Program-made: the position numbers and the translations under genes
The notes under the pieces: model-generated
The model's database searches: none
What the model was told of the DNA's origin: nothing
The model's input: only the letters and a program-made list of their open reading frames with translations
Assembly (NCBI GenBank): GCA_030390025.1
Contig: CM059431.1
Span: 125,304,001 to 125,368,000, forward strand
DNA length: 64,000 bases
Origin: Squalus acanthias
Lineage: Eukaryota
Direction: 5' to 3'
In this document: positions 1 through 41,369 of the stretch, in pieces
Numbering within the stretch: position 1 is the first letter of the stretch
Layout of the letters: each line of letters opens with the position of its first letter

Positions 1-1783
1 GTTATTTTGAAGCAAACCTCCAGATCTGTTGAGGCATCAGAATCTTCACTTGCTCTGTGAGAGCCCTGGTCTGGTGTGACTCTCATTTTATGTATGCTGT
101 GCATCTGTGGAATCATGAGCCTGGTGTTCAGAGGACAGCCTTTGTCCTCAAGCAGCCAGCCTAACACCCGACAGTCTGGGTGGAAGAGATTCGGTATTGA
201 GGACTGACGTAGGATGAGGCCATCAGGACTACTGCCAGGATACCAGTCACAGACCTGCATAAATCATTGCCTATGGTCGCAGATAGGTTGTTCATTTAAC
301 AAATTAAATCCCTTCCTGTTGCAGTAGAGGGTTTGGTCTTGTACAGGAGCACACAGAGCCACATCGATGCAGTTTATGACCCCCTCCACCTAAGGAGGTC
401 CAGAAACTCTTGCAAACCCCACTGCACTCTCCTCCTGCTTGGCAGCCTCCATTGGTGATGAATTCCTGGCAGCTAGCAAACAGTGCATCTGTGACCCCCT
501 TGTTTGCATTGTGCGCAGCAAACTGAGAAATGCTACTGATGTCACCTGCTCAATGTTGTAAGGAGCCCAATGCAGAAAGGTTCAGGGTCAGTGAGCTTCA
601 CAGCCACAGGCAGTGCTGTGGACACCCTGGTGCAGGGCTGCAATTTGTGGTTCAGCAGGTGGCAGAGGTAAGGCACTACCTCCTTGGGGAAACGGAGCCG
701 CTGGATGCACTGCTCCTCTGTAAAGTTGAGGTAGGTAATCCAGTTCCTGTGCACCCTCATGGTGTAAGGCTTCCTTCGCCTTCCCTCCTTTTGCTCTCTT
801 CCAGCAGCCTGTACAGCCCTCTGCGGTCTTTCTTGCTGCTGTTGCCATTGTCCCTGCTCCTCATGTCATAACCCCAAAGGCAGATCAAACAGAATACTTA
901 TGTTCCAACAATGTTGGGAAGGCAATCCTTGGACAGAGTGCAGGACCTCCCAAAAATCACACTTTGAGTTCAGGTCAGTGAAACAGCAGCTGAAACAAAC
1001 ATCAGTACCACACTCTGCAGTAACCTAACAACTCCAAACAGAGACTTACCTTAATGGAGGTGAGTATCCCTTTAAATAACACTTCTGGAGCATGCTTCCT
1101 GACTGTTAAGCCAATAACTTCCAGGTCAAGGTTAAGGCCCAGCGAATCAGGTGCTTCCACACACAAATTTAAGAAACAGGTCCTTATTTTTTTTCATTCA
1201 TTGGATGTGGGTGTCACTGACAAGGTCAGCATTTATTGCCCATCCCTAATTGCCCTTAGAAAGTGGTGGTGAGTCACCTTATACAAATGAGTGGCTTGCC
1301 AGGCCATTTCAGAGGGAAGTTAAGAGTCAACCACACTATGGGACTGGAGTCACATATAGGCCAGTATTTACTTCCCTAAAGGACATTAGTGAACCAGATG
1401 AGTTTTTACGACAATCTGGTAGTTTCATGGTCACCATTACTGATCCTAGCTTTTTATTCCAGATTTATTTAATTAACTGAATTAAAATTGTCTAGCTGCC
1501 GTGATAGGATTGGAATTCATGTCTCCAGATCATTACTCCAGATTACTAGTCCAGTAACATAACCACTATGCTACCATACCCTATGATTAGGCACAGGACC
1601 CTCATTTTAATATTTAAACCAAAACTGTGCTTCTTGCTGGCCGCCTAAAAAATCTCAGGACAAATTTAGCTGTGGCACAGGTGCACATGCAAATTGGGCG
1701 CGGGAAATCGCACTGCTAAATTCGTCATTGTTGCACTTGTTTCACGCCTGAGAAACAGGCGCAACTTTGTGGAATTTAGACCC
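1..1783 (-). mobile_element. Degraded PIF/Harbinger transposon (transposase relic about 20-870, terminus near 1783)
   Basis: ORF 542-760 (YLNFTEEQCIQRLRF...LQP...LPVAVK) matches the transposases at 14428 and 39843; YPGSS-type codons near 230-245; TIR-like GGAATTTAGACCC ending near 1783. Confidence 0.8.
1186..1581 (-). mobile_element. tRNA-derived SINE sharing its 5' about 300 nt with the LINE at 3357, followed by a LINE-type 3' tail and A-rich end
   Basis: Reverse complement of about 1285-1581 aligns with 3358-3675 (GGTAGCATAGTGGTTATGTTACTGGACTAGTAAT...GCAAGCCACTCA); ends in AATAAA...GAATGAAAAAAAA. Confidence 0.85.
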
Positions 1784-1989
1784 CAACATATCTTATTGGA
1801 GTCTAGGGACTGGCGGATCTTGGGATATCTGTGAGTATTTCCTTCGTTCTCATTCTGCGAGTTTTTCCTTTGGTGTTGAACATTGTGCAAGTAACCTTAG
1901 TAGAGATCAAACAGTGTTCAAGTTGCTGACCTCATCTGAACTAGGTGGACATTGATCATTTTGCGTCTAGCAAATCCTATGTTCCCAAG

Positions 1990-2220
1990 GAGGCATGCTC
2001 ACGGGAATCCTTCCCCTCCCTAAGGGCCCAGGACTACATATCTGCACTTATCTGAGGAGCAGTGCTTAAGGAGGCTGCACTTCTCAGGGAGGCAGGCAGA
2101 GAGTTCCACCACTTCCTGCAATAAAGCCTGCAATCAGCTGTGACAGGTAAGGCTATATTGTCTATTGCAGCCAAAGTCACTACAGCCCTGAACTTCTTTG
2201 TCTCTGGATCCTTCCAGGTT
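1990..2220 (+). pseudogene. Harbinger transposase N-terminal relic
   Basis: tctgaggagcagtgcttaaggaggctgcacttc (SEEQCLRRLHF) and gccctgaacttctttgtctctggatccttccag (ALNFFVSGSFQ). Confidence 0.75.
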
Positions 2221-3356
2221 AAAGTACTTTTCTCTTATTCTAAAAGAAACCACTGAATATTTGAATATTTATCTCCTGTTTTTCAATGGCATCTACTCAC
2301 ACTTGATCACACAGTGGAGAAAAAGTCCTATGCCGCCGTCATTTTCTCATCAGGCCTATTAAAGAACCAGTTTTATACCCGGCACAATGTTAGTACATTT
2401 CTATTGTACACGGTTTAGTATTTGCACCATGAAAGTGAAAAATTCTGCCATCTATTAAATATCGATTGTAGCCAATACATTACAAAGATAGAAACTATTT
2501 TAAATAAAGCATTTGGGTTTGAACAAGCTAAGCAATTTTCCAAGTTTCATAATCAGCTATTGCTAGATTAGCCTTCAACATAACATATTGGTTCAATTAC
2601 AAAACCATTTACAGTAATTTGGTTAAACATAATAAAGTTATGAGTTCCCTCAAATCAGAGTCAGAAGCGTAATGCTGTGATAGCTTTTTAGGACATCTTA
2701 ATTATTAGAAATTAAATTACTTCAATTTTACTGTTAAGGAGGGAAAACAATTAAATGAGATAGAGATTGCAAAATGTTAATGAGATTGGTTCACTGCACA
2801 TGACCATGAAAGCTTTAAGTTAAACAGATGCTTCTCATTGTGCAAACAAGCACTCCTTATTGTGTGCCAAGGAATCATGGGGTCGATTTTTGTTTCTGCC
2901 CCATTTAGGCCCTATAAACAGAGAGGTAGCTAGATTGGGGGGTGAGGGGGAAATTGACTCACTGTTGGAGGTCGGTGCATTCTGATTTTCGGCCTGACCT
3001 TAATTTAGGTGACCAGCACTCCCGCTGGGACAAGCAGGGACCTAATTAAAATATTCAAACAGGGGTCAACTGATGTCAGGAGCCCCAATGCCATTTTTGT
3101 GTCTATCAGCAGTATTTCCTCAATCCTCCCACAAATCATAGGAGACAATAATAGCGCTATTTAAAGGGATACTCACCTGCTGTCATTTAAAATGCTGTAA
3201 AGTTTTGGAAGATATTTTGCTGGTAGTTTCTGGAGGTTTTGGCTTCTTAGGTGATGATAAAGTTCTTGTTGTTGCTGTACAACCTTCTGAAATCTAACAC
3301 ACAAAGGCAAACTAGATGGACCTTGGTCTTTTCTCATCGAGCAAAACCTATATTGT

Positions 3357-5324
3357 GGGGAACGGTAGCATAGTGGTTATGTTACTGGACTAGTAATCCA
3401 GTGGCCTGGACTAATGATCCAGTAGATGTAAGTTCAAATTCAGTTAATTAAATAAATCTGGAATATAAAAAAAGCTAGTATCAGTAATGGTGACCATGAA
3501 ACTATCGGATTGTCGTAAAAACCCATCTGGTTCACTAATGTCCTTTAGGGAAGGAAATCTGCCATTGTTACCTCGTCTGGCAGCTATGTGACCTCAGACC
3601 TATATGTGACTCCAGACCCACAGCAATGTGATTGATTCTTAACTTCCCTCTGAAATGACCGAGCAAGCCACTCAATGTAACAAACTGCTACAAAAAACAA
3701 TAATAAGAATAAAACCGGATGGTTGACTTCAGCACCGGCTTCTGATACGATAACGACACAGTCGACCCTGCAAAGTCCTCCTCACTAACGTCTGGGGACT
3801 TGTGCCAAAATTGGGAGAGCTCTCCCACAGACTAGTCAAGCAACAGCCTGACATAGTCATATTCACAGAATCATACCTTTCCTTCAATGTCCCAGACTCC
3901 TCCAGCACCATCCTTGAGTATGTCCTGTCCCACCGGCAGGACACACCCACCAGGGATGGTGGCACAGTGGTATATACAGTCGGGAAAGAGTGGCCCTGGG
4001 AGTCCTCAAAATTGACTCCGGACCCCATGAAGTCTCACGGCTTCAGGTCAAACAGGGGTAAAGAAACCTCCTGCTGATTACCACCTACCGCCCTCCCACA
4101 GCTGATGAATCAGTACTCCTCCATGTTGAACACCACTTGAAAGAAGCACTGAGAGTAGCAAGGGGACAGAATATACTCTGGGTGGGGGACTTCAACATCC
4201 ATCCCCAAGAGTGGCCCGGTAGCACCACTACTGACCGAGCTGGCTGAGTCCTGAAGGACATGGCTGCCAGGCTGGGCCTATGACAGGTTGTGAGAGAACC
4301 AACACGAGGGGAAAACCTACTTGACCTCATCCTTACCAATCTACCTGTCGCAGATGCATCTGTCCATGACAGCATTGGTAGCAGTGACCACCGCACAGTC
4401 CTTGTGGAGACAAAGACCCGTCTTCACATTGAGGTCAACCTCCATCGTGTTGTGTGGCCCTACCACCATGCTAAATAGGATGGATTCAGAACAGATCTAG
4501 CAGCTCAAAACTGGGCATCCATGAGGCGCTGTGGGCCATCAGCAGCAGCAGAATTGTATTCCACCACAATATGTAACCTCATGGTCCGGCATATCCCTCA
4601 CTCTACCATTACCATCAAGCCAGGGGACCAACCCTGGTTCAATGAGGAGTGCAGAAGATCATGCCAGGAGCAGCACCAGGCATACTTAAAAATGAGTGCC
4701 AACCTGGATAAGCTGCAACACAGGACTACATGCAAGCTAAACAGTGGGAGCAAGATGCTATAGACAGAGCTAAGCGATTCCACAACCAACGGATCAGATG
4801 AAAGCTCTGCGGTCCTGCCACATCCAGTCGTGAATGGTGGTGGACAATTAAACAACTAATGGGAGGAGGAGGCTCCATGAATATCCCCATCCTTAATGAT
4901 GGCGGAGCCCAGCACGCTAGTGCAAAAGACAAGGCTGAAGCCTTTGCAACCAGCTTCAGCCAGAGTGCCGAGTGGATGATCCATATCGGCTTCCTCCTGA
5001 CGTCCCCACCATCACAGAAGCCAGTCTTCAGCCAAATTGATTCACTCCACGTGATATCAAGAAACGGCTGAGCGCACTGGATACAGAAAAGGCTATGGGC
5101 CCCGACAACATCCCGGCTGTGGTGCCAGTACAGCTACAAGACTGGAATCGACCCGACAATGTGGAAAATTGCCCAGGTATATCCTGTCCACAAAAAGCAG
5201 GACAAATCCAATCTGGCCAATTACCGCCCCATCAGTCTACTCTCAATCATCAGCAAAGTGATGGAAGGTGTCGTCGACAGTGCTATCAAGCGGCACTTAC
5301 TCACCAATAACCTGCTCACCGATG
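3357..5324 (+). mobile_element. CR1-group LINE, 5' portion: tRNA-derived leader, APE endonuclease and start of RT; frameshifted and 3'-truncated
   Basis: LTNVWGL, PDIVIFTESYL, YRPP, WVGDFN, PTRGENLLDLILTN, SDH (APE); GPDNIP, WKIAQVYPVHKK, NYRPISLLS (RT N-terminus); A box TAGCATAGTGG at 3366-3376. Confidence 0.9.
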
Positions 5325-7127
5325 TTTTATCGGAAAGAGGACGAGGTGATGGTCGGTGATAGAGGAAAGCTAAGGAGTGTAGGACTGTTGGTGAATGGGG
5401 AGGTGTGGTTCAGGTTACTGGTATCACTCTGAATAATGTGATCACGGGCTCCCAGAAAGACAGGGGCTGTCTACGTTGTAGACTCCCTTCCTCTTCCTGT
5501 TCCTCCACTTCCTGTTGCACTTTCACCTGCTCCACTTCCTACGACTCCTCAGCTTCTCACCTGATAGGTATTGGCAAAGGCTGTTCCCTCACAATAGCCA
5601 GGTTGTGCAGCATGTAGCATACTACCGCAAATCTTGATACCCGCTCAGCTGAGCACTGCTGTGCTCCTCCAGCATGGTCCAGGCAGCAGAAGCATTGCTT
5701 GAGGATGCCGATGGTGTACTCTATGATATTACTTGAGGGAGCATGATTCTCATTGTACGCCTGCTTTGCATGTGTGCATGGGTTCCTGACCGGAATAATG
5801 AGCCATGTCATGAGGGGATAACACTTGTTGCCCAGTAGCCAGCTTTTGACTTGCCGTGGCAGTTCAAATACAGGTGAAACAGAGGACTGCCGCAGAATGA
5901 AACAATTGTGACTGCTGCCAGGATAATGGGCATCCACCCTAATGATGCCCTGCCTGTGGACACACACCAGCTGCACAATGAGGGAGTGGAATCCCTTTCA
6001 GTTGATGAAAATGGCCCTGTTCAGATGAGGAACACATAAGGCAATGTGCATGCAGTCAACGGCACCCTGCAACATGGGGAAGTCTGCAATCCGTGCAAAA
6101 CTTCATGCTTGCTCCCCTGCTTGTCTCTGGCAAGAGGGAATGAGATGAATGTGTTTCTCTGTGTGTAGAGAGCCTCAGTGACCTCCCTTATACAGCAGTG
6201 CACTGCAAACTGCGAGATAGTGCTTATATCTCCAGCAGCAGCCTGAAAGTAGCCAAACACATGAAAGCTAACAGCCACAGTTACCTTGACAGCCACAGGC
6301 AATGCTCTCCTTGCCATGCTTTGTGGCTGCAGTTGTGGCTGCAGCAGTTGGCAGATTTCACTTACGCCCTCTTTTGTGAAGCGAAGACGTCTCAAGCATC
6401 AGTCCTCGCTGCAGCTGATGTAAGTGTATTGCTCCCTGAAGACCCTTGACAGATATGGCCTCCTGCTAAGAGAGCCCTTTTTCCCCCTTTTCCTCCAGAG
6501 CAGCTTGTCCTGCTCTACGTGGCCTCTCTTCATTCTCCCAGTCATGTTCAATTCCTTCATTCTCCCAGTCATGTTCAATTCCAAGAGGAAGTCTTACCAG
6601 GCCACCTATGTCTGTAAGCAACTTGTTTCTGCACAAGCTTTTAATGAACAAAGATTAATTCAGCACCAGCCAGACCACTCCCTGTAGAGTACTCAAACTT
6701 TAGCCAAATTTAGAAAAATTCCAAAAATGCGTTCAATTGCATCAGCAGCCAGAAGAAATAATCCAGCAACTGATCTGTAAATAATTCGTCATCCCCTTTA
6801 AGTAGTGATGGTGGCGGGGGTTCTTCATTCCGTTTAACGTCGTGATTAGCAGTGTGAAGTTAAGACAGGGAGTTGGCAGGAGTGTGGGGATTCGAAAATG
6901 GCAGCGGTGGCTTCAAATCAGCATTGCACACTGATTTACGTCATCATCTCATTGCTTTGCATGCTGCCAGCGGTTGTTAGGCGTGAGCGTTCAAACCCCT
7001 TTACCAAGATGGCACCATGCGTACTTCCCATCGGAAGTGTGCGTGCGCATCTCGGACCCCATTTTCGAGTGTTAGGTAGCTGTGTAGCACCTAAGAAATG
7101 GTCACTACATGGCCCAATTTAGCCCCC
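5325..7127 (-). mobile_element. Truncated Harbinger transposon with disrupted transposase (about 5480-6580)
   Basis: ORFs 6021-6395 and 5557-5976 (QLVCVH, YPGSSHN, LLGNKCY, IIEYTIGILKQ); terminus CCCAATTTAGCCCCC near 7127; 27-bp tandem duplication at about 6530-6582. Confidence 0.88.
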
Positions 7128-7269
7128 ATGGAGTCATCTGGGAGTGTTGAAGGAAAAAGCAGGACTTTTGATATGTACCATACAATGCAGATATTTCACG
7201 ATTTGCACTGTAATAGGCGTTGATTTTAACTGCCACCGTGATTCCATCACACACCTCTTTGAGGATAAT

Positions 7270-8255: not shown

Positions 8256-10402
8256 AGAACATAAGGACATAAGAAATAGGAGCAGGAGTAGGCCATATGG
8301 CCCCTCGAGCCTGCTCCCCATTCAATAAGATCATGGCTGATCATCCACCTCCACTCCACTTTCCCACCCGATCTCCATATCCCTCGATTCCCCTAGAGTC
8401 CAAAAATCTATCTATCTCAGCCTTGAATATACTCAAAGACTAAGCATCCACAGCCCTCTGGGGAAGAGAATTCCAAAGGTTCACAACCCTCTGAGTGAAG
8501 AAATTCCTCCTCATCTCAGTCTTAAATGGCCTATCCCTTATCCTGAGTCTATGCCCCCTAGTTCCAGACACTCCAGCCAGGGGAAACAACCTCTCAGCAT
8601 CTTCCCTGTCAATCCTCTTCAGAATCTTGTATGTTTCAATGAGATCACCTCTCATTCTTCTAAACCCCAGAGAGTAAAGGCCCATTCTACACAATCTCTC
8701 ACCATAAGAAAGCCCTCTCATCCCAGGAATCAATCTAGTGAACCTTTGTTGCACCACCTCCAAGGCAAGTATATCCTTCCTTAGATAAGGAGACCAAAAC
8801 TGTGCACAATACTCCAGGTGTGGTCTCACCAAGGTCCTGTACAATTGTAGCAAGACTTTCTTACTCTTATACTCCAACCCCCTTGCAATAAAGGCCAACA
8901 TGCCATTTGCCTTCCTTATTGCTTGCTGTACCTGCATTCTAGCTTTCTGTGTTTCTTGCACGAGGACACCCAAATCTCTCTGAACACCAACATTTAAAAG
9001 TTTCTCACCATTTAAAAATGATTCTGTTTTTCTATTCTTCCTACCAAAGTGAATAACCTCACATTTCCCTACATTATACTCAATCTGCCACCTTACTGCC
9101 CATTCACTTAGTCTATCTATATCCCTTTGCTATGTTCTCCTCACAGCTTACTGTCCCATCTAGTTTTGTATCGTCAGCAAACTTGGATACATTGGCCTAG
9201 AAATTCGGGTGGCCGGCTTGCCGCGGGGTTAAGGATCGCGCGCGCTCTTACCTACCGCGCCTGCCGTTGTGTTTCAGGGCCCACAGGAACTTCGGGTCCT
9301 GGGCCTCTCCCTAGTGCCGGCGCGCAGTGCTTGCGTGTCCCAGGGGCGCAGTTAGTGCGATGCGACTCCTGGGATCACATGGGCCATGGAGAGCCAATGG
9401 CAGCAGACCATCTTTCATTCATAGATTTGACAGGAGACCTGTCAAATCTGTGAATTGAAATCGGCCCCAAAAGAACAGCTAAACCTCAAATAAATTTAAA
9501 AAAAAACATTTATAAAATAACTATAGTTAAATAAATTAACCACTTTAAACAAAAATTTAAATTTTTGAAAAAATTAAAATTCTTTTTAAAAGTTATAAAA
9601 ATAAACTTACCTTTCTTTAAAGTTTCTAAAAAAGATAAACCTGTTGAAAAAAAATTAAAATTATACTTAATTAACTACTTACCTTGATCAAAAGGAGTCT
9701 TACGCCTCCTTTTTACTTGTGTAAAATCTTCCATACTTACCCTCGCGTTGAAACCTGAAAAAAAACCTAAGTGTGCTGCGTGCGCGCAGCCTCTAGTGCG
9801 CACGTGGTTCACCTAGGAACCGCCCCCTTCGCCATACTGGAAGTGCCGGTTTCCCGTGCATGCAGGAAACCGGCACTTCGGGAACGAATACGGGTGAGTA
9901 TGCAGCGGGTACTCTCCCGTATTCGGACGAATTTTTGGGCCATTATACTCGGTCCCTTCATCTAGGTCATTAATATAGATTGTAAATAGCTGAGGCCCCA
10001 ACACTGATCCTTAAGGCACCCCACTAGTTACAGCCTGCCAACCTGAAAAAGACCCATTTATCCCTACTCTCTGTTTTCTGTCCATTGACCAATCCTCTAT
10101 CCATGCTACTATTTTAGCCCCAACCCCATGAACCCTTATCTTGTATAATAACGTTTTATGTGACACCTTATCGAATGTCTTTTGGAAATCCAAATATTCT
10201 ACATCCATTGGTTCCCCTTTATCTACCCTGCTAGTTACATCCTCAAAAAACTCGAATAAATTTGTCAAACACGATTTCCCTTTCATAAAACCATGTTGAC
10301 TCTACCGAATCATGTTATGATTTTCTAAGTGCCCTGATACCACTCACTTCCTTAACAATGGATTCCAGCATTTTCCCGACGACTGGTATAAGGCTAACTG
10401 GC
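8256..10402 (-). mobile_element. CR1 LINE, 5'-truncated RT region, interrupted by a MITE
   Basis: ORFs 10011-10286 (KSCLTNL, YLDFQK, SGVP) and 8440-8973 ([17 protein letters not shown]); (CTTATGTT)-type tail at 8256. Confidence 0.95.
9194..9941. mobile_element. MITE with GGCC termini and ATT TSD
   Basis: TIRs GGCCTAGAAATTCG / CGAATTTTTGGGCC; ATT at 9191-9193 and 9942-9944; removing it restores the CR1 sequence. Confidence 0.92.
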
Positions 10403-13147: not shown

Positions 13148-14427
13148 GGGCATAATAGCAGCTACAGCCAGTGTGGCTCATTGGCCTGCTGATCTCCCCA
13201 TAATGCCTTCTTTCATCTTGCCCCACTTCAAACATCAAATTCTGTATTTGATGCACACTTAAACTCATCGCTGTCATTAACTTTACCTTTAGTTGTCCAT
13301 CACCATGGATTTCTGCAACTTGCACTTGTGGCTCCCTGAGCTTCCATTAAAGTTCGTATTTTACTCCAGATCCCAGGACCTAGAGAGATGGTCAGGCCTG
13401 TGGGAAGATACATAATGAGTAAGCTTAGTGTTCTTTTTCCAGAATTATGTAATTTTTATTTACTTATTTTTTTTACATGTATGTAGCTGTGTATGTGCAA
13501 AAACAACATAGCCAATTTAAAGATTGGAAGAAAATTATTTGAGCATTTCCTTTGCTCAATTTTGAGATACTTGCTGATTCCTGGTAACTTTGGAATAAAA
13601 ATTAATAATTTGGTTGATTTGGCAGTAGCTGCTGATTATTTGTCAGCTTTACCTAATTAATGGGATTGGTTTTTGATTGGTTTGCATTTACTCAATGGGA
13701 TATTTGAGCCAATCAGCATAGTTAACAGATATAGGTTATTTGAACTCAATCAAATTTTTTTGCTCGAGCAATATGTCGCTTTTGAGCTACGACAGCTATT
13801 GAGCTCTGATCTATTTGGGGTAAGATACATTTGAGAGTCCAGACATGTGTAACATCTAAGACTTTGGGGGAAAAATTCGGTTGATTAGAGCCTCCCGTTG
13901 GTGCCCTAAGAGGGCGGTAACGGGGCGCAAAGCAACTAGCGCCCGGGCGTGGTGATGTTTGCGCCGCTCGCGAAATTGACCAGACATTTTGCGGCGCCGC
14001 TAAACACTAACGCCACGATCTCCTGCGCCCGCAGATCGTGATGTCAGTCGAGCGTGCAACGCCCCAGCAGCACCCCGGACCAGATATTGAGTGGTGCCCC
14101 CTGCCTTTCCGCCTGCCGCTAGCAACGACAGGTAGAGGGGAACGTTTTGCAGTCGGGAAGGGGCTGGTGGAGCGCTACTTAAAGGCGGCCGCTTCCTGCC
14201 TTTTTTTGTCGGTGACATTTTTGCACCACACATTCTGAGAGAGAGAGAGAGACTTCTGGAGAGATTCAACACTGTGTGAAGGAGTTTTGGGTACTGAGCA
14301 ACACTTTGAAGGTTCATTTTGATTTGCCCTTCCTTGTATCGATTTAGAAGAGACTCTGGGGGCTGCACTGATTCGGGGCGTCGTCCTGCGCCTGCAGAAT
14401 CGGAGGCATCAGAGACGCAGAGAGAGA

Positions 14428-15435
14428 GTGGCAAACATGGCCAGAGGGAGGAGGGCCAACAGGCCTCTGCACAGGAGACGTAACCCTCCCAGGGTATTCT
14501 GGGAACAATTCTCCTACATTAATTTGTCTGAGGAGCAGTGTTTACGCAGGCTGCGCTTCAGCAAGGAGGTGGTCACTGAGCTCTGCCACCTGCTGCAACC
14601 AGATCTGCAGCCTCAACTGAGGTCCAGGACGTCTCTGTTGGTGGCAGTGAAGGTGACAGTGGCTCTGAATTTTTATGCCAGCAGCTCCTTTCAAGCATCT
14701 ACTGGGGACATTGCCAATATCTCCCAGTTCGCTGTCCATTGTTGTATCCGGGAGGTGACAAATGCTCTCTATAAAAGGAGACGCCAGTACATCTCTTTCC
14801 CCATGACCCGGGCCAAACAGCATGAACATGCATGTGGCTTTGCTAGGATAGCGGGCTTCCCCATGGTGCAGGGCGCCATTGACTGCACACATGTGGCATT
14901 GTGGGCACCGCATGAAAATACAGAGGTATTCCGAAACCGCAAGGGGTACCATTCCTTAAACATGCAGTTGGTCTGTGACCACAGACAGCTCATACTCGCT
15001 GTCAATGCCCGCTATACTGGCAGCAGCCACAATGCTTTCATCCTGTGCCAGACTGGTGTGCCAGACCTTTTCCAGGCACTGCATCACCCAAGTGGATGGC
15101 TCCTCGGGGACAAGGGTTATCCACTCTGCACCTGGCTGATGACACTGCTCTGTAACCCCAACACCCCTGCCGAGCTGCGGCATAATGAAAGCCATATCGC
15201 CACCAAAAACATAATTGACCAGACGATCGGCGTGCTCAAGCAACGGTTCCGCTGTCTGGACCACTCAGGAGGAGCCCTGCAGTACTCTCCTGAGCGAGTC
15301 TCCCTCTTCATAGTTGGGTGCTGCATGCTTCATAACTTGGCAATCCTGAGGACCCAGCCAATGCCACCAGGAATTGGTGCATCACCTGAGGAGGAGGAGG
15401 AAGAGGAGGAGGAGGATGAGGAGGCTGATCAGTAG
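14428..15435 (+). pseudogene. Harbinger DDE transposase (HARBI1-like family), copy A, probably inactive
   Basis: GAIDCTH, LLGDKGY; NIIDQTIG where copy B has the catalytic E; stop codon about 27 codons earlier than in copy B. Confidence 0.9.
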
Positions 15436-15786
15436 CAGCACCAACGTGCAAGGGAGGCCCACAATGTTGCCACTGCCAGGGCCATCCGTCAATGGCTGGT
15501 AACAAGCCGCTTCTAGGCCCCTACTCAGAAGAAGTCTTCTGGCATGGAGAACAACATCATGAAAAGCAACCCGCACCCCCTATTGCCGGCCAAAGCTGGA
15601 ATGATTCCAAAGGCCAAAAATGTAAATTTAGAATACAGCAACTTTTTTCTTTAACAAACTCTGTGTGTGTCATTTATTCAGGACAAACAATTAGAAACAA
15701 ACACAACAAATCATGAATAGCCAAAACAGTAAACAAATGTAATCACACGAACCTCGACCTTTACGACAAACATTCCCACCATTTAT

Positions 15787-17620
15787 TTAGACCTCCAACT
15801 GTTTGCCCTTCGAGGGTGATCTCCTTCCCTTACGCACTTCCCCCCTTCCCACCCTACTGCTCCTCCGTAATGGGGCTCCAGTGGCTGCAGCAAGGCTGGT
15901 GGAAGGCTGCTGATTTTCAGATGCTGAGACTACAGATGCCCTTGAAGGACGCCCTTGACCAGCTCTGGGCCTGGAGGCCCCGGCTGCAGACTGCACCAAC
16001 TCTGCATGGGCGGCAGCAGTCTGGGCTGGCTGTGTTGCAGGCGGTGGCAAGTGCAATGGGGAAGTGACAGTGGTGGGAGCAGGAATGCTGTCACCCTGAG
16101 AGAGGACAGCACCTTCCTGCTTGACCGACACACTGGCACTCCCACGGGGCAGTACCTCAGCATCCGGAGCAATCTGCTCGAGCACAGATTGGTGGCCTGC
16201 TGCGGCACCGTAAGAGCCCCGGGACAATGTGGCCGACCCAGCGACAATGGCAGCAGTCAGTGCTTGCGTTACATCAATCTGAGACTGCATGCGAGCAGTC
16301 TGAGAGTGGTTGGCAGCAGCCAGTGACTGAATTGCAGCACTAAGCCATTGTGTTGCGTCGGCCTGTGCTGCAGCGGAGTGCTCCACACTCCTTGCCAGTC
16401 CAGCAATGCTTTCGGGCACCCTTCCCATTGCACCCATGAGCTCAGTGTGCATGCTCAAGGCTTGGCTATTCATTTCCACGATGACGCACTCTTCCTCTGC
16501 GTCCAGTGCAGCTGGACTCACTTGCCTACTCTCCCTCCGGGGAGATGGCCTCCAAGCTTCCCTACCCCCATCGCGTTGCTGCAGCCCGCTGGGTCTCGGA
16601 GTTTCGTCCTCATCAGACCCTTCCCCCTCCTCCCCTCCAGGGAAGGTGTAGTCCCAGTGTGGGCATGGGCTCCCTCGGGAGACGCAGGCGGTGAGGCTCC
16701 GGCTTCCGCTTCCTCCTCGCCTGGGGCATCGCTGCCACTGCTTGGTTGAGGGACAGGCTGGTCAGCTGGTGGTTCACTATCTGAAAGCAGGAAGGTACAA
16801 GAGTGGCTTTAGCGTCAGGACAGGGGGGCAGTAAGGGAGCACGGACTGGAGACATTTAGTAAGTTGGATTGAAAGTGTAAAAGGCTGGTGTTGTGGGGGG
16901 CAAGTGGAATGAGAGAGGAGAGAAAGCTGATGAACATACCATTGCTGTCCCAAGGGGGTTAACCTCTCCAGCGGCCACGGCACCTATCACCTGGCTGGCA
17001 ACGATCCTGTGGACGCGCGCCTCCAAATCGCTGAAGGTCTGCAGCTCAGCCGGCCCTCCACCCGTCCGTTGCTGCTGGCGCCTGTTATGTGATAGCTTGG
17101 CCTGCAAGAAAAAGGACGGCGTCTGAGTGAATGTGCAGCCATGGTCTTGCCTGATGTGCCTCCCATAGTTGAATAGCCCTTAATGTATGCAGCCATGTGC
17201 TTGCCTGATGTGCCTCCAAATGTTGAATAGCCCTTCATGTATGCAAGGTGTGGAATGTGCGTGTGTGTTTTATGAGATGGCCATAGGTCTTGGATGAGTG
17301 TTGGGCATTTGGGGTTTTCAAACCCTCTGGGCACAGAGTGAAGTTGAGATGGAGGGATGTAGAGGTATTGAAAAGCAGCCACTCACCTTGACCACCCTAG
17401 TGAGGTCGTTGAACTTCTTCCGACATTGGGTGTGGGTCCTGGGCACCAGGCTCCTGGAGGAGACGTGCTGAGTCACCTCACTCCAGACTCTTCTGTATTC
17501 GCGTGGCAATGGCCTCCTGCCACTCTGGTAGAGTATTGCCCTTCGCCGCTCCACAGCACCAACCAGAGCCACCAAGGCCCGGTCGCTGAAGCACTGAGCT
17601 CTTTCTCTGGGCCTCTCCAT
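15787..17620 (-). pseudogene. Harbinger Myb/SANT-like DNA-binding protein gene, 3 exons (17620-17387, 17101-16940, 16780-15787), frameshifted
   Basis: Exon 1 MERPRERAQCFSDRAL...VWSEV...RTHTQCRKKFNDL (trihelix/Myb); GT-AG sites gtgagt, ttgcag, gtatgt, tttcag conserved in copies B and C. Confidence 0.88.
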
Positions 17621-18004
17621 TGTTGGTTCCAGCAGAATTGATGTACAGGTGTGTCCAGGCCGATATTCAAGGCTGCAATGAGCAGGGTGTAGCTGGAGAG
17701 CAAGATCGACCCTCCCCTTTAAGAACTGGCCGGCGCCAGTCTGTCTGTGTTCCATCGCTAACTGACATCACCTGATCTTCGCCCGCGCTCAGAGTTAGCG
17801 CCTCGCTCCTCGGCGTTAGCGCCTTAAGCCTGATTTAGCACTCAAATCACCTCCAGGGCCGATAGAGGCCAAGTTTGCAGTCAGAGTCGATAAATAGCGC
17901 CAGGCGCTAAACTTTGCGCCCGGCCGATAATTGCGCCCCAAACGGGGCAATACCGAATTTCTCACCCTAATGATTGACTTTGTTATAATTATAGTCACTA
18001 ATAA

Positions 18005-19354: not shown

Positions 19355-20215
19355 TAAGAACATAACATAAGAACATATGAAATAGGAGCAGGAGTCAGCC
19401 ATTTGACCCTTCGAGCCTGCGCCGCCATTCATCAATATCAGGGCTAATCTTCTACCTCAACTCCACCTTCCCGCACTATCCCCGTATCCCTTAATTCCCT
19501 TCGTTCCCAAAAATTTATCGACCTCTATCTTGAATATAATCAATGACCGAGATCCACAGCTCTCCGGTGTATAGAATTCCAAAGATTCACAGCCCTTTGA
19601 GTGAAGAGATTTCTCCTCCTCTCAGTTCTAAATGGCCAGCCCCTTATTCTGTGACTGTGATCTTGTGTTCTAGATTCCCAGCCAGGGGAAACATTTTCTC
19701 TGCATTAACCCTGTCAAGCCCCTTAAGAATTTTATGTTTCAATTAGATCACCTCTCATTCTTCTAAACTCTAAGGAATATAGGCCTAGTCTACTCAATCT
19801 CTCCTCATAGGGCAATCCCCTCATCCCAGGAACCAGTCTAGTGAACCTTCGTTGCACTCCCTCTAAGGCAAGTATGTCTTTCCTTAGGTAAGGATACCAG
19901 AACTGTACACAATACTCCAGGTGTGGCCTCACCAATGTCCTGTATAATTGTAGTAAGACTTCTTTACTCTTATACTCTAATCATTTGTAACAAAAGCTAA
20001 CATACCATTTGCTTTCCTAATTGCTTGCTGTACCTGCATGTTAACTTTCTGTGATTCATGTACAAGGACACCCAGGTCCCTCTGAGTGCAAACATTTCTC
20101 AGTCTCTCACCATTCAAAAAATATTCTTCTTTTTTGTTTTTCCTACCAAAGTGGATAACTTCACAGTTCCCCACATTGTAATCCATTTGCCATGTTCTTG
20201 CCCACTCAATCAACC
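19355..20215 (-). mobile_element. CR1 LINE 3' fragment
   Basis: ORFs 19977-20234 and 19732-19935 ([22 protein letters not shown]); taagaaca tail repeats. Confidence 0.93.
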
Positions 20216-22399: not shown

Positions 22400-23988
22400 T
22401 AAGAACATAAGAACATAAGAACATAAGAAATAGGAGCAGGAGTAGGCCAATCGGCCCCTCGAGCCTGCTCCGCCATTCAATAAGATCATGGCTGATCTGA
22501 TCCTAACCGCCAATCTACTATCTATCACAGAACCATCTCCTGCATCTAACAGAATTGCACACACGAAATAGGAGCAGAATCAGGCTTCACAGTCCCTGGG
22601 CCCGCTCCACTACCCACAGGGCCATGACCGATCCGAACCTAGACTCATGTCCAAATTCCTGCCCGCTCCCCGTAACCCTTAATGCCCTTTACTTCTAGGA
22701 AACTGTCTATTTCTGTTTTAAATTTAATTAATGTTGTAGCTTCTACAGCTTTTTGTGGCAGCATATTCCATGGACCTACCACCCTCTGAGTGAAGTAGTT
22801 CCTCCTCATCTCAGTTTTGAAAGAGCAGCCCCTTATTCTAAGACTATGTCCCCTAGTTCTCGTCTCACCCGTCATCGGGAACATCCTCCCCGCATCCACC
22901 CGATCCAACCCCTTCACAATCTTATATGTTTCAATAAGATCGCCTCTCATTCTTCTGAACTCCAATGAGTAGAGTCCCAATCTACCCAACCTCTCCTCAT
23001 ATGACCACCCCCTCATCCCCGGGATTAACCGAGTGAACCTTTTTTGCACTGCCTCGAGAGCAAGGATGTCTTTCCTTAAGTAAGGACACCAAAACTGTAT
23101 GCAGTATTCCAGGTGCGGTCTCACCAATACCTTGTACAACTGAAGCAATACCTCCCTATTTTTATATTCTATCCCCCTAGCAATGAAAGCCAACATTCCA
23201 TTTGCCTTCTTAATCACTTGCTGCACCTGCATACTAACCTTTTGAGTTTCGTGCACCAGGACCCCCAGATCCCTTTGCACTTCAGTACTCTCCAGTTTCT
23301 TGCCATTAAGATAATAAATTGCTCTAGGATTTTTCCTGCCAAAGTGCATCACCTCACACTTTCCAGTGTTGTATTCCATCTGCCAAATCTCTGCCCACTT
23401 ACTTAGCCTGTCTATGTCCCCTTGCAGGTTTTTTATGTCCTCCTCACTCACTACTTTCCCTCCCATTTTTGTATCATCTGCAAATTTTGATATGTTACAC
23501 TTGGTCCCTTCCTCCAAATCGTTAATATAGATTGTGAAGAGTTGGGGACCCAGCACTGACCCCTGTGGAACACCACTAGTTACTGATTGCCAGTCTGAGA
23601 ATGAACCATTTATCCCAACTCTTTGCTTTCTGTTAGATAGCCAATCCTCTATCCATGCCAGAATATTACCCCCAATCCCGTGATTTTTTACCTTAAGCAA
23701 TAATCTTTTGTGTGGCACCTTGTCAAATGCCTTTTGGAAGTCTAAATACACTACGTCCACTGGTTCCCCTTTATCCACTCTATATGTTACTTCCTCAAAG
23801 AACTCCAGCAAATTTGTCAAACATGACTTCCCCTTCGTAAAACCATGCTGACTTTGTCCTATTAAATTATGATTATCCAAATGTCCTGTTACTGTTTCCT
23901 TAATAATGGACTCCAAAATTTTACCTACCACAGATGTTAGGCTAACCGGTCTATAGTTACCAGCCTTCTGTCTACTGCCCTTTTTAAA
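22400..23988 (-). mobile_element. Young 5'-truncated CR1 LINE
   Basis: Uninterrupted RT ORF and a perfect (TAAGAACA)n tail at about 22400-22428. Confidence 0.95.
22645..23931 (-). CDS. CR1 ORF2 reverse transcriptase, C-terminal 428 aa (open but 5'-truncated)
   Basis: QHGF, YLDFQKAFD, GVPQGSVLGP, FADD, RDLGV, RPHLEY motifs with no stop. Confidence 0.9.
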   Translation of the reverse strand: MVGKILESIIKETVTGHLDNHNLIGQSQHGFTKGKSCLTNLLEFFEEVTYRVDKGEPVDVVYLDFQKAFDKVPHKRLLLKVKNHGIGGNILAWIEDWLSNRKQRVGINGSFSDWQSVTSGVPQGSVLGPQLFTIYINDLEEGTKCNISKFADDTKMGGKVVSEEDIKNLQGDIDRLSKWAEIWQMEYNTGKCEVMHFGRKNPRAIYYLNGKKLESTEVQRDLGVLVHETQKVSMQVQQVIKKANGMLAFIARGIEYKNREVLLQLYKVLVRPHLEYCIQFWCPYLRKDILALEAVQKRFTRLIPGMRGWSYEERLGRLGLYSLEFRRMRGDLIETYKIVKGLDRVDAGRMFPMTGETRTRGHSLRIRGCSFKTEMRRNYFTQRVVGPWNMLPQKAVEATTLIKFKTEIDSFLEVKGIKGYGERAGIWT

Positions 23989-25132
23989 GGCCTGCTTTTA
24001 CCAGGATAAGAGTTCAAAAAAGTTACAAAAAAAAGTTTTTTCACTGATTTATCATTTAAAAATACTTTCAAAAAAGGTAAGATTATTTTTAGCCCCGTAA
24101 AAAACTTTAATTATTTTTTTCAAATTATTTTTTAATTTATTGTAATTTCAAGTCATTTTAAAAATGTGATTTTTTTTTTTATTTATTTAAAGTTTTACTA
24201 TGTTTTGGAGGTAATCTCCATTCATATATTTGACAGGTCTTCCTGTCAAATGAATGAAGGGAGATTCCCTTCTGGGATTGGCTCCCCATGGCCCACGTGA
24301 TCCCAGGGACGCTGCAAACTACATGCGCCCCTGGGATACGTGGGCCCTGCGCACTTCAAGTTTGGAGAGGCCCAGGAGCGGAAGCGTGTGCGTCCCGGGA
24401 GCCCTCAGGTAAGGGCGTAGATTTTTCCAGATCGCAGGCCTCCGCCCGCGGAAGGCCTGCGATCGGAAAATACGGGCCAACGTCCACCCGAGACAAAATT
24501 TACTGCATCTTGGGAAAACCATGTGTGAAAGATTGCAGACATTTATTGCTCAATCAGAGCATTTAAAAGAAAGGGAAGAAGCAACTAAGTACTTGGATAA
24601 GATAAGATAAAAACAAGTGTTACCTATGAAAGTGTCTACTCATCAATGCTATTATTTAAACTGTCCAAATATGTGTAATGGTCGCTTATGTTGACCCATC
24701 ACTTGTGTTGACAAAATTAGAATGGTCCCCAACATGTTGACATGAGTGGGTAGGACTGAATAAGTTCCTAAGTACAAAGATAAAGAACAGTGTAACAGCT
24801 AATAGAGAAAATAAAGCATGCGCAAGGTTAGCCAATGTTAGGAAGAGATGAAGACAACTGAAGAAGACGAGTATGAAAGATGACTCACTGCAGACGTGAA
24901 CTCAGTATCACAAAGGAAGAGAGCAGTGCCCACGTCACAGCCAGCCTGCTCCCAGGGAATGCGATTTTATGGTTTTATGCTCACTTCACCCAAGGGACAG
25001 CCTTAACACTGGAAGCCTGCCAGTGATACATTGAACATAGCCTTTGAACTTAACCTTGCAAAGTCCATACTGCAATTTCAGATTCTGAACGTAGTGCTGT
25101 TATGCTGTTAAAAAGCAAAACTCAGCTAATAC

Positions 25133-30955: not shown

Positions 30956-31494
30956 TTCACAGAGGCTAGAATCAAAGAATGATACTGCACAGATGGAGGT
31001 CATTCGGACCACCGTGCCTGTGCCGGCTCTTTGAAAGAACTATCCCATTAGTCCCATTCCCCTGCCCTTTCCCCATAGCCCTGCAAACATTCCCCTGTAA
31101 GTATTTATCCAATTTCCTTTTGAAAGTTATTATTGAATCTGCTTCCACCGCCCTTTCAGGCAATGCATTTCAGATCATAACAACTCGCCACGTAAAAAAA
31201 ATCTCTTCATCTCGCCTCTGGTTCTTTTGCCAATGACCTTAAATCTGTCTCCTCTGAATACTGACCCTTCTGCCACTGGAAACAGCTTCTCCTTAATTAC
31301 TCTATAAAACCCTTCCTGATTTTGAACACATCTATTCAATCTCAACTTAACCATCTCTGCTCTAAGGAGAAAAACCCCAGCTTCTCTAGGGTCTCCGCAT
31401 AAGTGATGTCCCACATTCCTGGTACTATTCTAGTAAATCTCCTCAGCACTCTTGACATCCTTCCTAAAGTGTGCAGCCCAGAATTGGACACAAT

Positions 31495-33113: not shown

Positions 33114-34745
33114 TATGCCTTTGATTATAAAGCCAAGAATTCTGGCCATTTAACAGCCTTCTCAACTTATCCTGCGACCTTCAAAGATTTATGTACATAT
33201 ACCCCCAGGTCTCTCTGTTCCTGCACCCGCTTTAAAATTGTACCATTTAGTTTATATTGCCTCTCCTTCTTCTTCCTATTAAAATGCATTACATCAAACT
33301 TGTATCACTTCAAAATTCTCTGTGTTAATTTGCATCTGCCATGTGTTTGCCCATTTCACCAGTCTGTAGTCTGTCTATGTCCTCCTGAAGTCTATTACTA
33401 TCCTCCTCACTGTTTACTACATTTCCGAGGTTTGTGTCATCAGCAAACTTTGATATTGTGCCCTGTGTACCCAAGTCCTGGTCATTAATATATATCAAGA
33501 AAAAGCAGTGGTCCTAATACTGACCCGTGGGGGACACCACTTCTTTCGAGTCTGAAAAATAACCATTCACCACTACTCTCTGCTTTCTGTCTCTGAGCCA
33601 AATTTGTATCCATGTTGCCACTGCCCCTTTAATCACGTAAGCTTTAATTTTGCCAACAGGTCTATTATGTGGTACTTTATAAAATGCTTTTTGACAGTCC
33701 ATGTACACAACATCAACCGCATTACCTTCATCAACCCTCTCTGTTATTTCATCAAAGAACTCAATCAAGTTAATCAAACAAGATTTGCCTTTAATTAACC
33801 CATATTTTTCCAAGTGAAAATTAATTTTGTCTCAGATTATTGTCTCTAAAATTTTCCCCACCACAGACTTTAGGCTGACCGGCCTGTCGTTGCTCCGTAT
33901 TATCCCTCTCCCCTATTTTGAACAGGCGTAACATTTACAATCCTCGACTGCTCTCGCACCACTTCCATAAGGAGAATTGGTAGATGGTGGCCAGAGCATC
34001 TGCTATCTCCACCCTTACTTCCCTTAGCAAACTAGGATGTATCCCATCTGGACCGGGTGACTTTTCTACTTTGAGCACTGCCAACCTTTTAAGTACCTCC
34101 TCTTTATCTATTTTTATCCTATCCAATTTCTCTACTCATGGAAATGTTTTCTATCTCCTCCTTTATTATGACACTGGCAGCATCCTGAGCCGTGCCCTAT
34201 GCCTCCACAAGAAGATCACCTTTTTAGTCCCTATTCGGCCCATCCTTCCATTTACTACCCATATGATTATCAAAGACTCTGAGTTCCCTTTTATTTTACC
34301 TGCTAATCTATTCTCACACACATCCTTTTTGCCCCTTATTTCCTTTTTTGGTTCTCTTCTGTACTTTTTGTATTCAGCTTGTTTCTCTACTGTATTATGA
34401 GCCTGACATTTATCTAAGCATACTTTTTCATTTTAATATCTATGGCCGCAAAATTCGGTTCTGTAGCTTTGGCTGGTTTGAAGAAAAAATGCCGTCTGCC
34501 TCATTTCTGCCCAGTTCCGGCATGGCCCACGCTGAACACCATCTTGGTGAGGGCGATAGCGTGGGTAGTACGTGTGTGCGCCGGCAGCATGCAGAGTAGG
34601 AAGATCGTGACATTAATCAGCGTGCAACGCTGATTTGACTCATGGCTTGCCATTTTCAACCTCGCCGCTCCATTCAACACACTCTCTTAAATAAAAGTGA
34701 GAAGTCGCACAACACCAGGTTATAGTCCAACAGTTTTATTTGAAA

Positions 34746-34783
34746 TCACAAGCTTTCGGAGCGACCGCTCCTTCGTCAGGTGA
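34746..34783 (-). ncRNA. Mirror copy of the hammerhead ribozyme motif in the inverted arm
   Basis: Exact reverse complement of 35915-35952. Confidence 0.8.
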
Positions 34784-35243
34784 AGTAAAGGAATACAAAA
34801 TCGACAAAGCATATATAGATAGAGAACAATGCATGTGTAACTTACAATGGCAGACGACTACATTTAATCCTCCTGACTGTTTATCTGCCGAGGTGTGACA
34901 AAAGGCAATCAGGTCAGCCAGGAAGGAACCACATCAAAGACATAGCAAGATACAACTGAGACAATGAGGTGGGGTTACAGGGGGTCCAATGTGTCAAAAG
35001 CTGCAGTCGGTATGTAAAACGATAAACTTTAAAATTTTTACTTTTTTACTGGGAATCACATCTGTGAACAAGCCAACGACGACTCGAGTCTGGATGACTC
35101 TACGTCATGTATCGTGACATAAACCCAAGATCCCGGTTGAGGCCGTCCTCATGAGTGCGGAACTTGGCTATCAGTTTCTGCTCGATGATTTTGCGTTGTC
35201 GTGTGTCTCTAAGGCCGCCTTGGAGAACGCTTACCCGCAGATC

Positions 35244-35598
35244 TACCCACCAGGTACATGGTACATACTCATGTGACTCGGCCAACGTTGTCTTCCTCAT
35301 ACGTTGCAGGAAAGAATGCACCGCGGCATGGTACATCGGCGAGACCATGCAGACACTGAGACAACGTATGAACGGACACCGCGCAACAATCGCCAGGCAG
35401 GATTGTTACCTCCCAGTCGGGGAACACTTCAGCAGTCAAGGACATTCAGCCTCGGATCTGCGGGTAAGCGTTCTCCAAGGCGGCCTTAGAGACACACGAC
35501 AACGCAAAATCATCGAGCAGGAACTGATAGCCAAGTTCCGCACTCATGAGGACGGCCTCAACCGGGATCTTGGGTTTATGTCACGATACATGACGTAG
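35244..35598 (+). CDS. GIY-YIG endonuclease domain of a Penelope-like element (C-terminal fragment)
   Basis: SCDSANVVFLIRC...YIGET...LRQRMNGH...VGEHF...RKIIEQELI...GLN. Confidence 0.92.
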
Positions 35599-35914
35599 AG
35601 TCATCCAGACTCGAGTCGTCGTTGGCTTGTTCACAGATGTGATTCCCAGTAAAAAAGTAAAAATTTTAAAGTTTATCGTTTTACATACCGACTGCAGCTT
35701 TTGACACATTGGACCCCCTGTAACCCCACCTCATTCTCTCAGTTGTATCTTGCTATGTCTTTGATGTGGTTCCTTCCTGGCTGACCTGATTGCCTTTTGT
35801 CACACCTCGGCAGATAAACAGTCAGGAGGATTAAATGTAGTCGTCTGCCATTGTAAGTTACACATGCATTGTTCTCTATCTATATATGCTTTGTCAATTT
35901 TGTATTCCTTTACT

Positions 35915-35952
35915 TCACCTGACGAAGGAGCGGTCGCTCCGAAAGCTTGTGA
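35915..35952 (+). ncRNA. Minimal type I hammerhead ribozyme motif
   Basis: TCAC-CTGACGA-A-GGAGC(GGTC)GCTCC-GAAA-GCTT-GTGA: core boxes, helix I TCAC/GTGA, helix II GGAGC/GCTCC, palindromic helix III. Confidence 0.85.
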
Positions 35953-41072: not shown

Positions 41073-41369
41073 GCCCCTACTGAGGAAATGGCTTCTGGCA
41101 TGGAGAACAACATGAATGAAAGCAACCCGCAACCCCAAAGCCGGCCAAGGCAGCAATGATTCCAAAAGCCAAACCTGTACATTTTGAATACAAAAACTTT
41201 TTTATTTTACAAACTCTGTGTGTGTCATTTCTTCATGACAAACTAACAGAAACAAACACAAAAAATCATTCATTAACATAACTGGTTCTCACAACCTGGA
41301 GATAATGTCCAAAACACGAAACAAAAGTTTGAAGACGAACCTCGGCCTTTAATAAAAAATTGACCAACA

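What the first reader, a model, noticed from the sequence alone, without database searches (positions are those of the whole stretch)
1186..1581. SINE that looks like an internal deletion derivative of the tRNA-headed LINE
Seen: its 5' about 300 nt matches the LINE leader up to GCAAGCCACTCA and then switches to a different tail of about 90 nt ending AATAAA...GAATGA(A)n. Inference: this tail is the 3' end of the same LINE, which is absent from this window. If so, head, body and tail all come from one LINE, unlike the usual tRNA plus LINE-tail fusion. The two copies are also inverted, 1.8 kb apart.
Basis: partly seen in the sequence, partly recalled or inferred. Interest (0 to 1): 0.7.

Follow-up and report, generated by a model that had tools for sequence, protein, structure and literature searches.

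The report
Shark SINE cut from its LINE
This short shark repeat looks like a protein-coding jumping gene (a Zenon-type LINE) that lost its coding middle, and because that LINE already begins with a tRNA-like promoter piece, one deletion would be enough to make what looks like a complete SINE.

Summary
Observation confirmed, with small boundary corrections. 1581-1187 (minus strand, 395 nt) shares its first ~300 nt with the APE+RT LINE at 3357-5324 (222/237 identical in ungapped blocks), then joins directly to a ~94-nt poly(A) tail absent elsewhere in the window. The LINE matches published elasmobranch Zenon consensuses (PMC13343379 supplement); all 7 start with this tRNA-like leader, so such LINEs are not rare chimeras. 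The tail is very probably the Zenon 3' end: in 4 of 4 runs the commonest loose end beside it reads as an ORF C-terminus like those of the LINE's relatives. No single sequence joining RT to tail was seen. Other leader-tail joints occur in contigs, suggesting several short forms; whether this exact junction is a family is untested. Deletion derivatives of Zenon are known (Persaeus), but without a tRNA head; I found no paper noting the head. The inverted placement looks like chance. RNA polymerase III transcription is unproven; the sense strand avoids T-runs more than 76 of 76 distant relatives. This scan noted the LINE family, and SINE-like short forms, before on other DNA of this genome.

The parts
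1187..1581 (-). Short non-coding element: LINE leader joined directly to LINE-type 3' end
1490..1581 (-). tRNA-like head (3' limit approximate). Exact A box at 1573-1563; B box at 1516-1508 with 2 mismatches, of which 1516 is private to this copy
   Evidence: table 3 (other letter at 1516 in 17344 of 18716 depth in X1, similar in X5, X20, X6)
1282..1489 (-). Body = rest of the Zenon 5' leader, in the version seen in the spiny dogfish consensuses; ~17-nt private deletion near 1361-1365
   Evidence: by-eye comparison
1277..1283 (-). Leader/tail junction, resolvable to about +/-3 nt; no foreign spacer
   Evidence: loose-end consensus table 7
1246..1280 (-). Remnant of the last ~11 codons of the LINE ORF, stop codon at 1248-1246, with a 1-nt frameshift near 1257
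   Evidence: translations; table 7
1187..1245 (-). 3' UTR (51 nt; AATAAA at 1237-1232; predicted hairpin, not significant) and A8 tail (1194-1187)
   Evidence: (z = -0.60)
3357..5324 (+). Decayed elasmobranch Zenon LINE copy, 5' end intact, 3' ~1.3 kb missing
3357..3753 (+). LINE 5' leader: A box 3366-3376, B-box-like 3432-3440; part shared with the short element ends at ~3679; no ORF1
3754..5324 (+). Broken single ORF: APE endonuclease (PF14529, E=9e-13) and start of RT (PF00078, E=0.006; 74-90% identical to shark and ray proteins)
5325..6509 (-). Harbinger/PIF-like transposase DNA that replaces the LINE's 3' part
   Evidence: loose end behind 5324 continues as RT

Best explanation
[quoted passage not shown] It keeps the first ~300 nt (tRNA-like head plus leader) and the last ~95 nt (ORF end, 3' UTR, poly(A)) and lacks ~2.9 kb of a ~3.3-kb element. 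Shown: shared leader; head fixed in the LINE family; direct junction; ORF-end character of the sequence that normally precedes the tail. Inferred: the deletion arose by a template jump during reverse transcription or by DNA repair; the short RNA is made from the internal A/B-box promoter, probably by RNA polymerase III, and is copied in trans by Zenon protein recognising the 3' end. Several such short forms probably arose separately and some multiplied. No separate head-addition step is needed, because the LINE already has the head.
For: Leader identity 222/237. 7/7 elasmobranch Zenon consensuses start with this leader, and a 12-nt leader motif occurs in the first 400 nt of only 6 of ~1,000 CR1-group consensus rows, all elasmobranch Zenon. 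The short element carries the leader version of the spiny dogfish consensuses, not that of the other four species (by eye), so it descends from a lineage-specific leader. Loose ends behind 1257 in 4/4 runs (257, 281, 38, 339 contigs) translate by hand as FKKAAHHHLL; the window tail continues in frame to SKGN-stop; relative P0064 ends FVKRAHHHLIRRR-stop, and close relatives L002-L006 and L009 end 9-19 residues after a similar F-K/R motif. Poly(A) and no ORF1 are Zenon marks. Leader-tail joints at other loci: 1256-1288 (4 contigs X1, 4 X5), 1256-1339 (5 X1, 3 X5, 8 X6), 1248-1304 and 1273/3555 (1 contig each, X20). Zenon is known to spawn such derivatives repeatedly in Lepidoptera.
Against: No single contig, protein or consensus seen here carries both RT and tail: supplement cells are cut at 400 nt, no listed piece spans both, and protein searches gave no close full-length family member. 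A tblastn of 175 proteins against the element gave no clear tail hit. The two multi-contig joints are marked 'between: not known', and 2602 joint rows were not shown. No target-site duplication (best match reached by 31% of random pairs). The tRNA match is below significance. The tail hairpin is not significant.
Confidence: 0.8

Rival explanations
1. One-off copy: this locus is a single Zenon insertion that lost its middle during or after insertion and never multiplied, so it is a deleted LINE copy, not a SINE family. Same origin as the best explanation, no propagation.
For: Only one such copy in 64 kb. Contigs with this same junction would align without a joint, so cannot count them. The other joints listed have different breakpoints. 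Zenon is abundant (4.4% of the spiny dogfish and 6.8% of the white shark genome), so rare deletions must exist.
Against: The breakpoints keep just the promoter-bearing leader and the 3' end. Other leader-tail joints fall in the same two zones, and one (1256-1339) appears in 16 contigs over three runs and two organisms.
Confidence: 0.3
2. SINE first: an ordinary tRNA-plus-body SINE with a Zenon tail existed first, and the Zenon ancestor of sharks and rays captured its head and body as a new 5' UTR. The short element would then be a survivor of the donor SINE, or a later recombinant.
For: The first 400 nt of the hagfish (2) and coelacanth (1) Zenon consensuses show no such head by eye, and 0 of 33 distant relatives with enough upstream DNA have an exact A box plus B box, so the head was gained in the elasmobranch lineage, plausibly from a SINE. 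Zenon-tailed tRNA SINEs exist in bivalves. Module exchange is common.
Against: The short element's leader is the lineage-specific version, ~94% identical to the neighbouring LINE leader; a donor separate since the shark-ray split should have diverged more. Several different junctions fit repeated deletion better than one ancestral SINE. This rival may still be right about the ultimate source of the head.
Confidence: 0.15
3. The tail comes from another CR1-group LINE of sharks, joined to a Zenon leader by template switching.
For: No direct RT-to-tail link was obtained, and an F-K motif near the ORF end is common in the CR1 group.
Against: Poly(A) is reported as unique to Zenon in the group. The CR1-like and L2-like 3' ends in this window differ from the tail. 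The closest C-terminal match, P0064, was found through this LINE's own RT.
Confidence: 0.05

Closest known systems
Persaeus, the short internally deleted element (SIDE) of lepidopteran Zenon (PMC6740152; parts 1-3 of 5 read)
   Same: Zenon parent; keeps the 5' UTR, the end of the ORF, the 3' UTR and poly(A); arose several times.
   Different: Persaeus has no tRNA/5S/7SL homology and no Pol III promoter, and has a variable central region. This element has A/B boxes inherited from the LINE and a direct junction.
Elasmobranch Zenon LINEs (PMC13343379; passages, sections 13 and 43, and supplement rows cut at 400 nt)
   Same: The LINE at 3357 has the same leader, one APE+RT ORF and no ORF1.
   Different: The paper's main text has 0 hits for 'tRNA' (preprint also 0), describes no short derivative in what I read, and says these elements are not formally annotated in a repeat repository.
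Bipartite SINEs such as Bov-tA, AfroSINE, SINE2_Gav, SINE2-1_ACar (PMC5786205; parts 1-4 of 5 read)
   Same: Body from the LINE 5' UTR, tail from the LINE 3' end.
   Different: There the parents are RTE or Vingi and the tRNA head is added later by a template switch. Here the parent is CR1-group and supplies the head. [quoted passage not shown]
Known shark SINEs: SacSINE1 and CmiSINEs (PMC5499810; parts 1-3 of 6 read), HE1 (table row only)
   Same: tRNA-headed short elements of cartilaginous fishes with LINE-derived tails.
   Different: Their tails come from L2-2_CM or HER1 and their bodies carry Deu, CORE or V domains. Their consensuses were not available to compare; from recall they do not resemble this element.

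Membership tests
SINE (SINEBase definition) | Under 700 bp and non-coding | tested here: met
   395 nt; only a frameshifted remnant of ~11 codons
SINE (SINEBase definition) | Head derived from tRNA, with internal A and B boxes | tested here: inconclusive
   A box exact, B box 2 mismatches, 57 nt apart; Rfam tRNA E=1.9 for the LINE copy only; clearer B boxes in published consensuses by eye
SINE (SINEBase definition) | Transcribed by RNA polymerase III | not testable with these tools
   Only contigs were available; no run on record as RNA
SINE (SINEBase definition) | Multi-copy family with a common structure | tested here: inconclusive
   Other leader-tail joints in several contigs; copies with this junction cannot be counted; no genome held
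SIDE of the Persaeus type | 5' end equals the partner LINE's 5' end | tested here: met
SIDE of the Persaeus type | 3' end equals the partner's ORF end, 3' UTR and poly(A) | tested here: met
   Indirect: loose ends, C-termini of relatives, poly(A); no single linking sequence
SIDE of the Persaeus type | No small-RNA head and no Pol III promoter | tested here: not met
   A and B boxes present. Works like a SIDE in origin; not filed as Persaeus
Bipartite SINE (Bov-tA model) | RNA-derived head added onto a headless bipartite RTE/Vingi derivative | tested here: not met
   The head is already in 7/7 LINE consensuses; parent is Zenon
Elasmobranch Zenon (LINE at 3357) | No ORF1; single APE+RT ORF | tested here: met
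   APE starts ~400 nt from the 5' end
Elasmobranch Zenon (LINE at 3357) | 5' sequence matches the published consensuses | tested here: met
   By-eye comparison and motif search of the first 400 nt; not aligned by program
Elasmobranch Zenon (LINE at 3357) | RT falls in the Zenon clade | not tested
   Only 62 residues of RT survive here; no labelled Zenon RT set was available
SacSINE1 / CmiSINE / HE1 | Deu, CORE or V central domain | not testable with these tools
   Consensus files not readable
SacSINE1 / CmiSINE / HE1 | L2- or CR1-type tail | tested here: not met
   Tail does not match the CR1-like and L2-like 3' ends in the window (their clade labels are recalled)

The most novel reading that the evidence does not exclude
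Elasmobranch Zenon is a protein-coding LINE transcribed by RNA polymerase III from a tRNA-derived internal promoter, its sense strand purged of T-runs. Any deletion that keeps both ends then yields a complete, mobile SINE in one step, and this has happened repeatedly in sharks. That would be a route to SINE birth with no RNA-head capture, and a natural case of a Pol III transcript that must be translated.
Probability: 0.35. Interest if true: 0.82.

Novelty: new variant of a known kind. Interest (0 to 1): 0.57.

Why it matters
The standard view is that LINEs use polymerase II and SINEs use polymerase III, and that a SINE needs a small-RNA head fused to LINE parts. A LINE family covering 4-7% of some shark genomes that carries the head itself removes that step. 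It makes two questions testable: can a Pol III transcript supply an APE+RT protein, and do SINE heads, bodies and tails sometimes come as one package from a LINE? It also matters for annotation: short copies would be masked as LINE fragments or called as an unrelated SINE.

Tried and rejected
No genome is held for this window, so the proposed genome search could not be run. Exact tail motif: 0 hits in viral, metagenome and prokaryote contigs; leader motif: 0 in viral contigs. Three protein searches and one representative search gave no close family protein reaching the C-terminus. No RNA holder listed; X20 is RNA only by guess, and contig depth cannot rank parts, so the depth differences between leader, tail and body were not used as evidence for expression or copy number. 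Target-site duplication: none above chance. Folds of head, body and tail: z from -0.77 to +0.32, none significant. Inverted duplication or fold-back artefact rejected: the spacer is covered by ordinary contigs in 3 runs (table 8), each copy has its own indels, and the second small inverted match (1058-1083/3153-3178) is not in mirror order. With two copies in 64 kb, a gap this short in this orientation has roughly a 3% chance per window (my estimate), unremarkable for so abundant a family. The idea that the tail is the displaced end of the 3357 copy is rejected because the short element has its own leader. T-run test: a dinucleotide shuffle shows no deficit (mean 1.06 runs, p=0.33) because it preserves the TT deficit itself; a mononucleotide shuffle gives p=0.05. 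No DNA similarity of tail or leader to 80 metagenome relatives (best E=0.07); no tRNA by ARAGORN in 60 of those 80 scanned (weak, since it also misses the window copies). Paper searches for the sequence motifs: 0. Supplements not readable: PMC5499810, PMC3531059; Repbase, Dfam and the Zenodo consensus set could not be searched.

Full report
What is there. The window is shark DNA: the closest protein hits of the LINE are from sharks and a ray. On the minus strand, 1581-1187 is a 395-nt element. Its first ~300 nt match the start of a LINE at 3357 (E=2e-59; 222/237 identities in five ungapped blocks; local score 263 against at most 31 in 200 shuffles). It then passes, with 0-1 unassigned base, into a tail of ~94 nt ending AATAAA...GAATG(A)8. 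The tail has no other hit in the window. The LINE has a ~400-nt leader, then one broken ORF with an APE domain (PF14529, E=9e-13) and the first 62 residues of RT. It stops at 5324, where Harbinger-like DNA begins; contigs from other loci continue there as RT, and the LINE does not resume in the window.

What the LINE is. Stuart et al. 2026 (PMC13343379) list CR1-group consensuses; I could see the first 400 nt of each. All 7 elasmobranch Zenon consensuses, from white shark, whale shark, catshark, spiny dogfish (3) and a stingray, start with the same tRNA-like head and leader (compared by eye). A 12-nt leader motif occurs in 6 of about 1,000 rows, all of them these Zenon elements; the seventh has a 1-nt gap there. 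Lengths are 2.9-3.3 kb. The paper gives no ORF1 and a poly(A) tail as Zenon marks, says poly(A) is unique to Zenon in the group, and says the elasmobranch elements are not formally annotated. Its text does not contain the word tRNA (preprint likewise). In public contigs, 703 (X1) and 814 (X6) contigs leave the reference at 3358 into unrelated flanks, so the head marks a sharp, shared 5' end. The headed LINE is the family norm.

Where the tail comes from. No genome was available, so I laid contigs of four runs on 1150-5340 at 80% likeness. In 4 of 4 runs the listed loose end behind 1257 (257, 281, 38 and 339 contigs; agreement 0.65-0.84) resembles the element's 1257-1280 but then goes on as something other than the leader. 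Translated by hand it reads FKKAAHHHLL; the window's own tail reads SKGN-stop just downstream. Relatives found through this LINE's RT end the same way: P0064 ends FVKRAHHHLIRRR-stop, and six of the close metagenome relatives end 9-19 residues after an F-K/R motif. The CR1-like and L2-like 3' ends in this window are different sequences. So the tail is the ORF end plus 3' UTR plus poly(A) of a Zenon-type LINE. This is indirect: I saw no contig, protein or consensus that holds both RT and tail, and a tblastn of 175 proteins against the element found no clear tail hit.

Direction. The short element carries the leader version of the spiny dogfish consensuses, including a segment after the head that the other four species lack in that form (by eye), and is ~94% identical to the neighbouring LINE leader. 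It therefore descends from a lineage-specific leader, which fits deletion from the LINE better than survival of an ancient donor SINE. Contigs show other leader-tail joints: 1256-1288 (4 contigs in X1, 4 in X5), 1256-1339 (5, 3 and 8 in X1, X5, X6), 1248-1304 and 1273/3555 (one each in X20). The two multi-contig rows are marked 'between: not known', and 2602 rows were not shown, so they suggest several short forms without mapping them. The ultimate source of the head is a separate question. Hagfish and coelacanth Zenon consensuses lack it in their first 400 nt, and 0 of 33 distant relatives with an ORF of 800 aa or more and 250 nt or more upstream have an exact A box with a B box, a test that both window copies pass. 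The head was probably gained once in the shark-ray ancestor, possibly from a SINE.

Is it a SINE family? Not shown. Copies with this same junction would align without a joint and cannot be counted. No target-site duplication survives (31% of random pairs score as well). A contig of a second organism enters the head from the same flank (X6, 1552-2080), so the insertion appears older than that split. I put the chance that this junction is a one-off at about 0.3.

Promoter. The A box is exact in both copies; the B box has 2 mismatches in the short copy and 1 in the LINE copy (box consensus recalled). One of the short copy's mismatches, 1516, is private: about 90% or more of the depth shows the consensus letter in all four runs. 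Rfam gives only E=1.9 for tRNA and nothing for the short copy. Following a lead from earlier notes of this scan, I tested T-runs. The LINE sense strand has 0 runs of 4 or more T in 1968 nt, against 5.4 per kb in the window; TT observed/expected is 0.67 and TTT 0.16. Among 76 relatives with ORFs of 300 aa or more, the lowest TT ratio is 0.85 (median 1.03), although 2 of 76 also have no T4 run; two CR1-like stretches of this window have 1.11 and 1.16. A dinucleotide shuffle shows no deficit (p=0.33) and a mononucleotide shuffle is borderline (p=0.05). The short copy itself has one T4 run. This fits Pol III transcription and does not prove it.

Inverted placement. The copies are back to back, 1775 nt apart, with ordinary spacer DNA covered by contigs in three runs, private indels in each copy and no mirror symmetry of flanking repeats. 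Zenon makes up 4.4-6.8% of two shark genomes. Chance is enough.

Comparison with what is known. Persaeus is a short internally deleted element from lepidopteran Zenon that keeps the 5' UTR, ORF end, 3' UTR and poly(A) and arose several times, but has no small-RNA head and no Pol III promoter. [quoted passage not shown] Known shark SINEs have L2 or HER1 tails. Nine literature searches found no report of a tRNA-headed shark Zenon or of its short forms. The library lacks most subscription papers, Repbase and Dfam; Ogiwara 1999 and Nishihara 2006 were not read, and two supplements were unreadable. I also saw passages only of PMC11481361, PMC3531059, PMC3747384, PMC10886601, PMC5381603 and bioRxiv 10.1101/443036, and part 1 of 4 of PMC7245038.

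Verdict. The mode of origin has a close precedent; the inherited tRNA-like head is the new part. This scan has noted the LINE family many times on other DNA of this genome (86 notes fit one look-up); those notes are unchecked and were not used as support. What this report adds is the assignment to Zenon, the Persaeus precedent and cross-species evidence that the head is fixed. New variant of a known kind; interest 0.57.

Noticed in passing
window 5325-7128: The LINE's RT is fused to the inside of a decayed Harbinger/PIF-like element, with no terminal repeat evident at the joint; more likely a deletion than a clean insertion.
   Followed up: partly
window 13859-17968 and 39398-43563: Two 4.1-kb copies (85% identical) of a Harbinger/PIF-like transposon with a DDE_Tnp_4 ORF and a convergent Myb/SANT ORF; further decayed copies lie at 36.4-38.4 kb and 47-51 kb.
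   Followed up: no
window 34693-35243 and 35455-36005: A 551-nt inverted repeat, 99.5% identical, with a 211-nt spacer: a young foldback element, a recent inverted duplication or an assembly artefact.
   Followed up: no
window 31305-31395 (-): ARAGORN calls a tRNA-Ser(AGA) next to a repeat region; may be a SINE head or a false call.
   Followed up: no
window 22645-23997 (-), 43925-45307 (+), 8258-10402, 19364-20208: CR1-like LINE 3' fragments with RT hits and short tandem tails; the copy at 8258-10402 is split by an insertion at 9194-9940.
   Followed up: partly
window 3290-3350 and 54898-54949: A short repeat end lies just upstream of the LINE head, with look-alikes at 1940-1985 and 54.9 kb.
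   Followed up: no
window 1058-1083 and 3153-3178: A second small inverted match (26 nt, 92%) near the two elements, not in mirror order with them.
   Followed up: partly
proteins P0005, P0006, P0015, P0017, P0020, P0024, P0166: Pieces of this LINE's ORF are built into shark and ray gene models (aldo-keto reductase, anoctamin-7-like, CSL4 and others): annotation contamination or exonisation.
   Followed up: no
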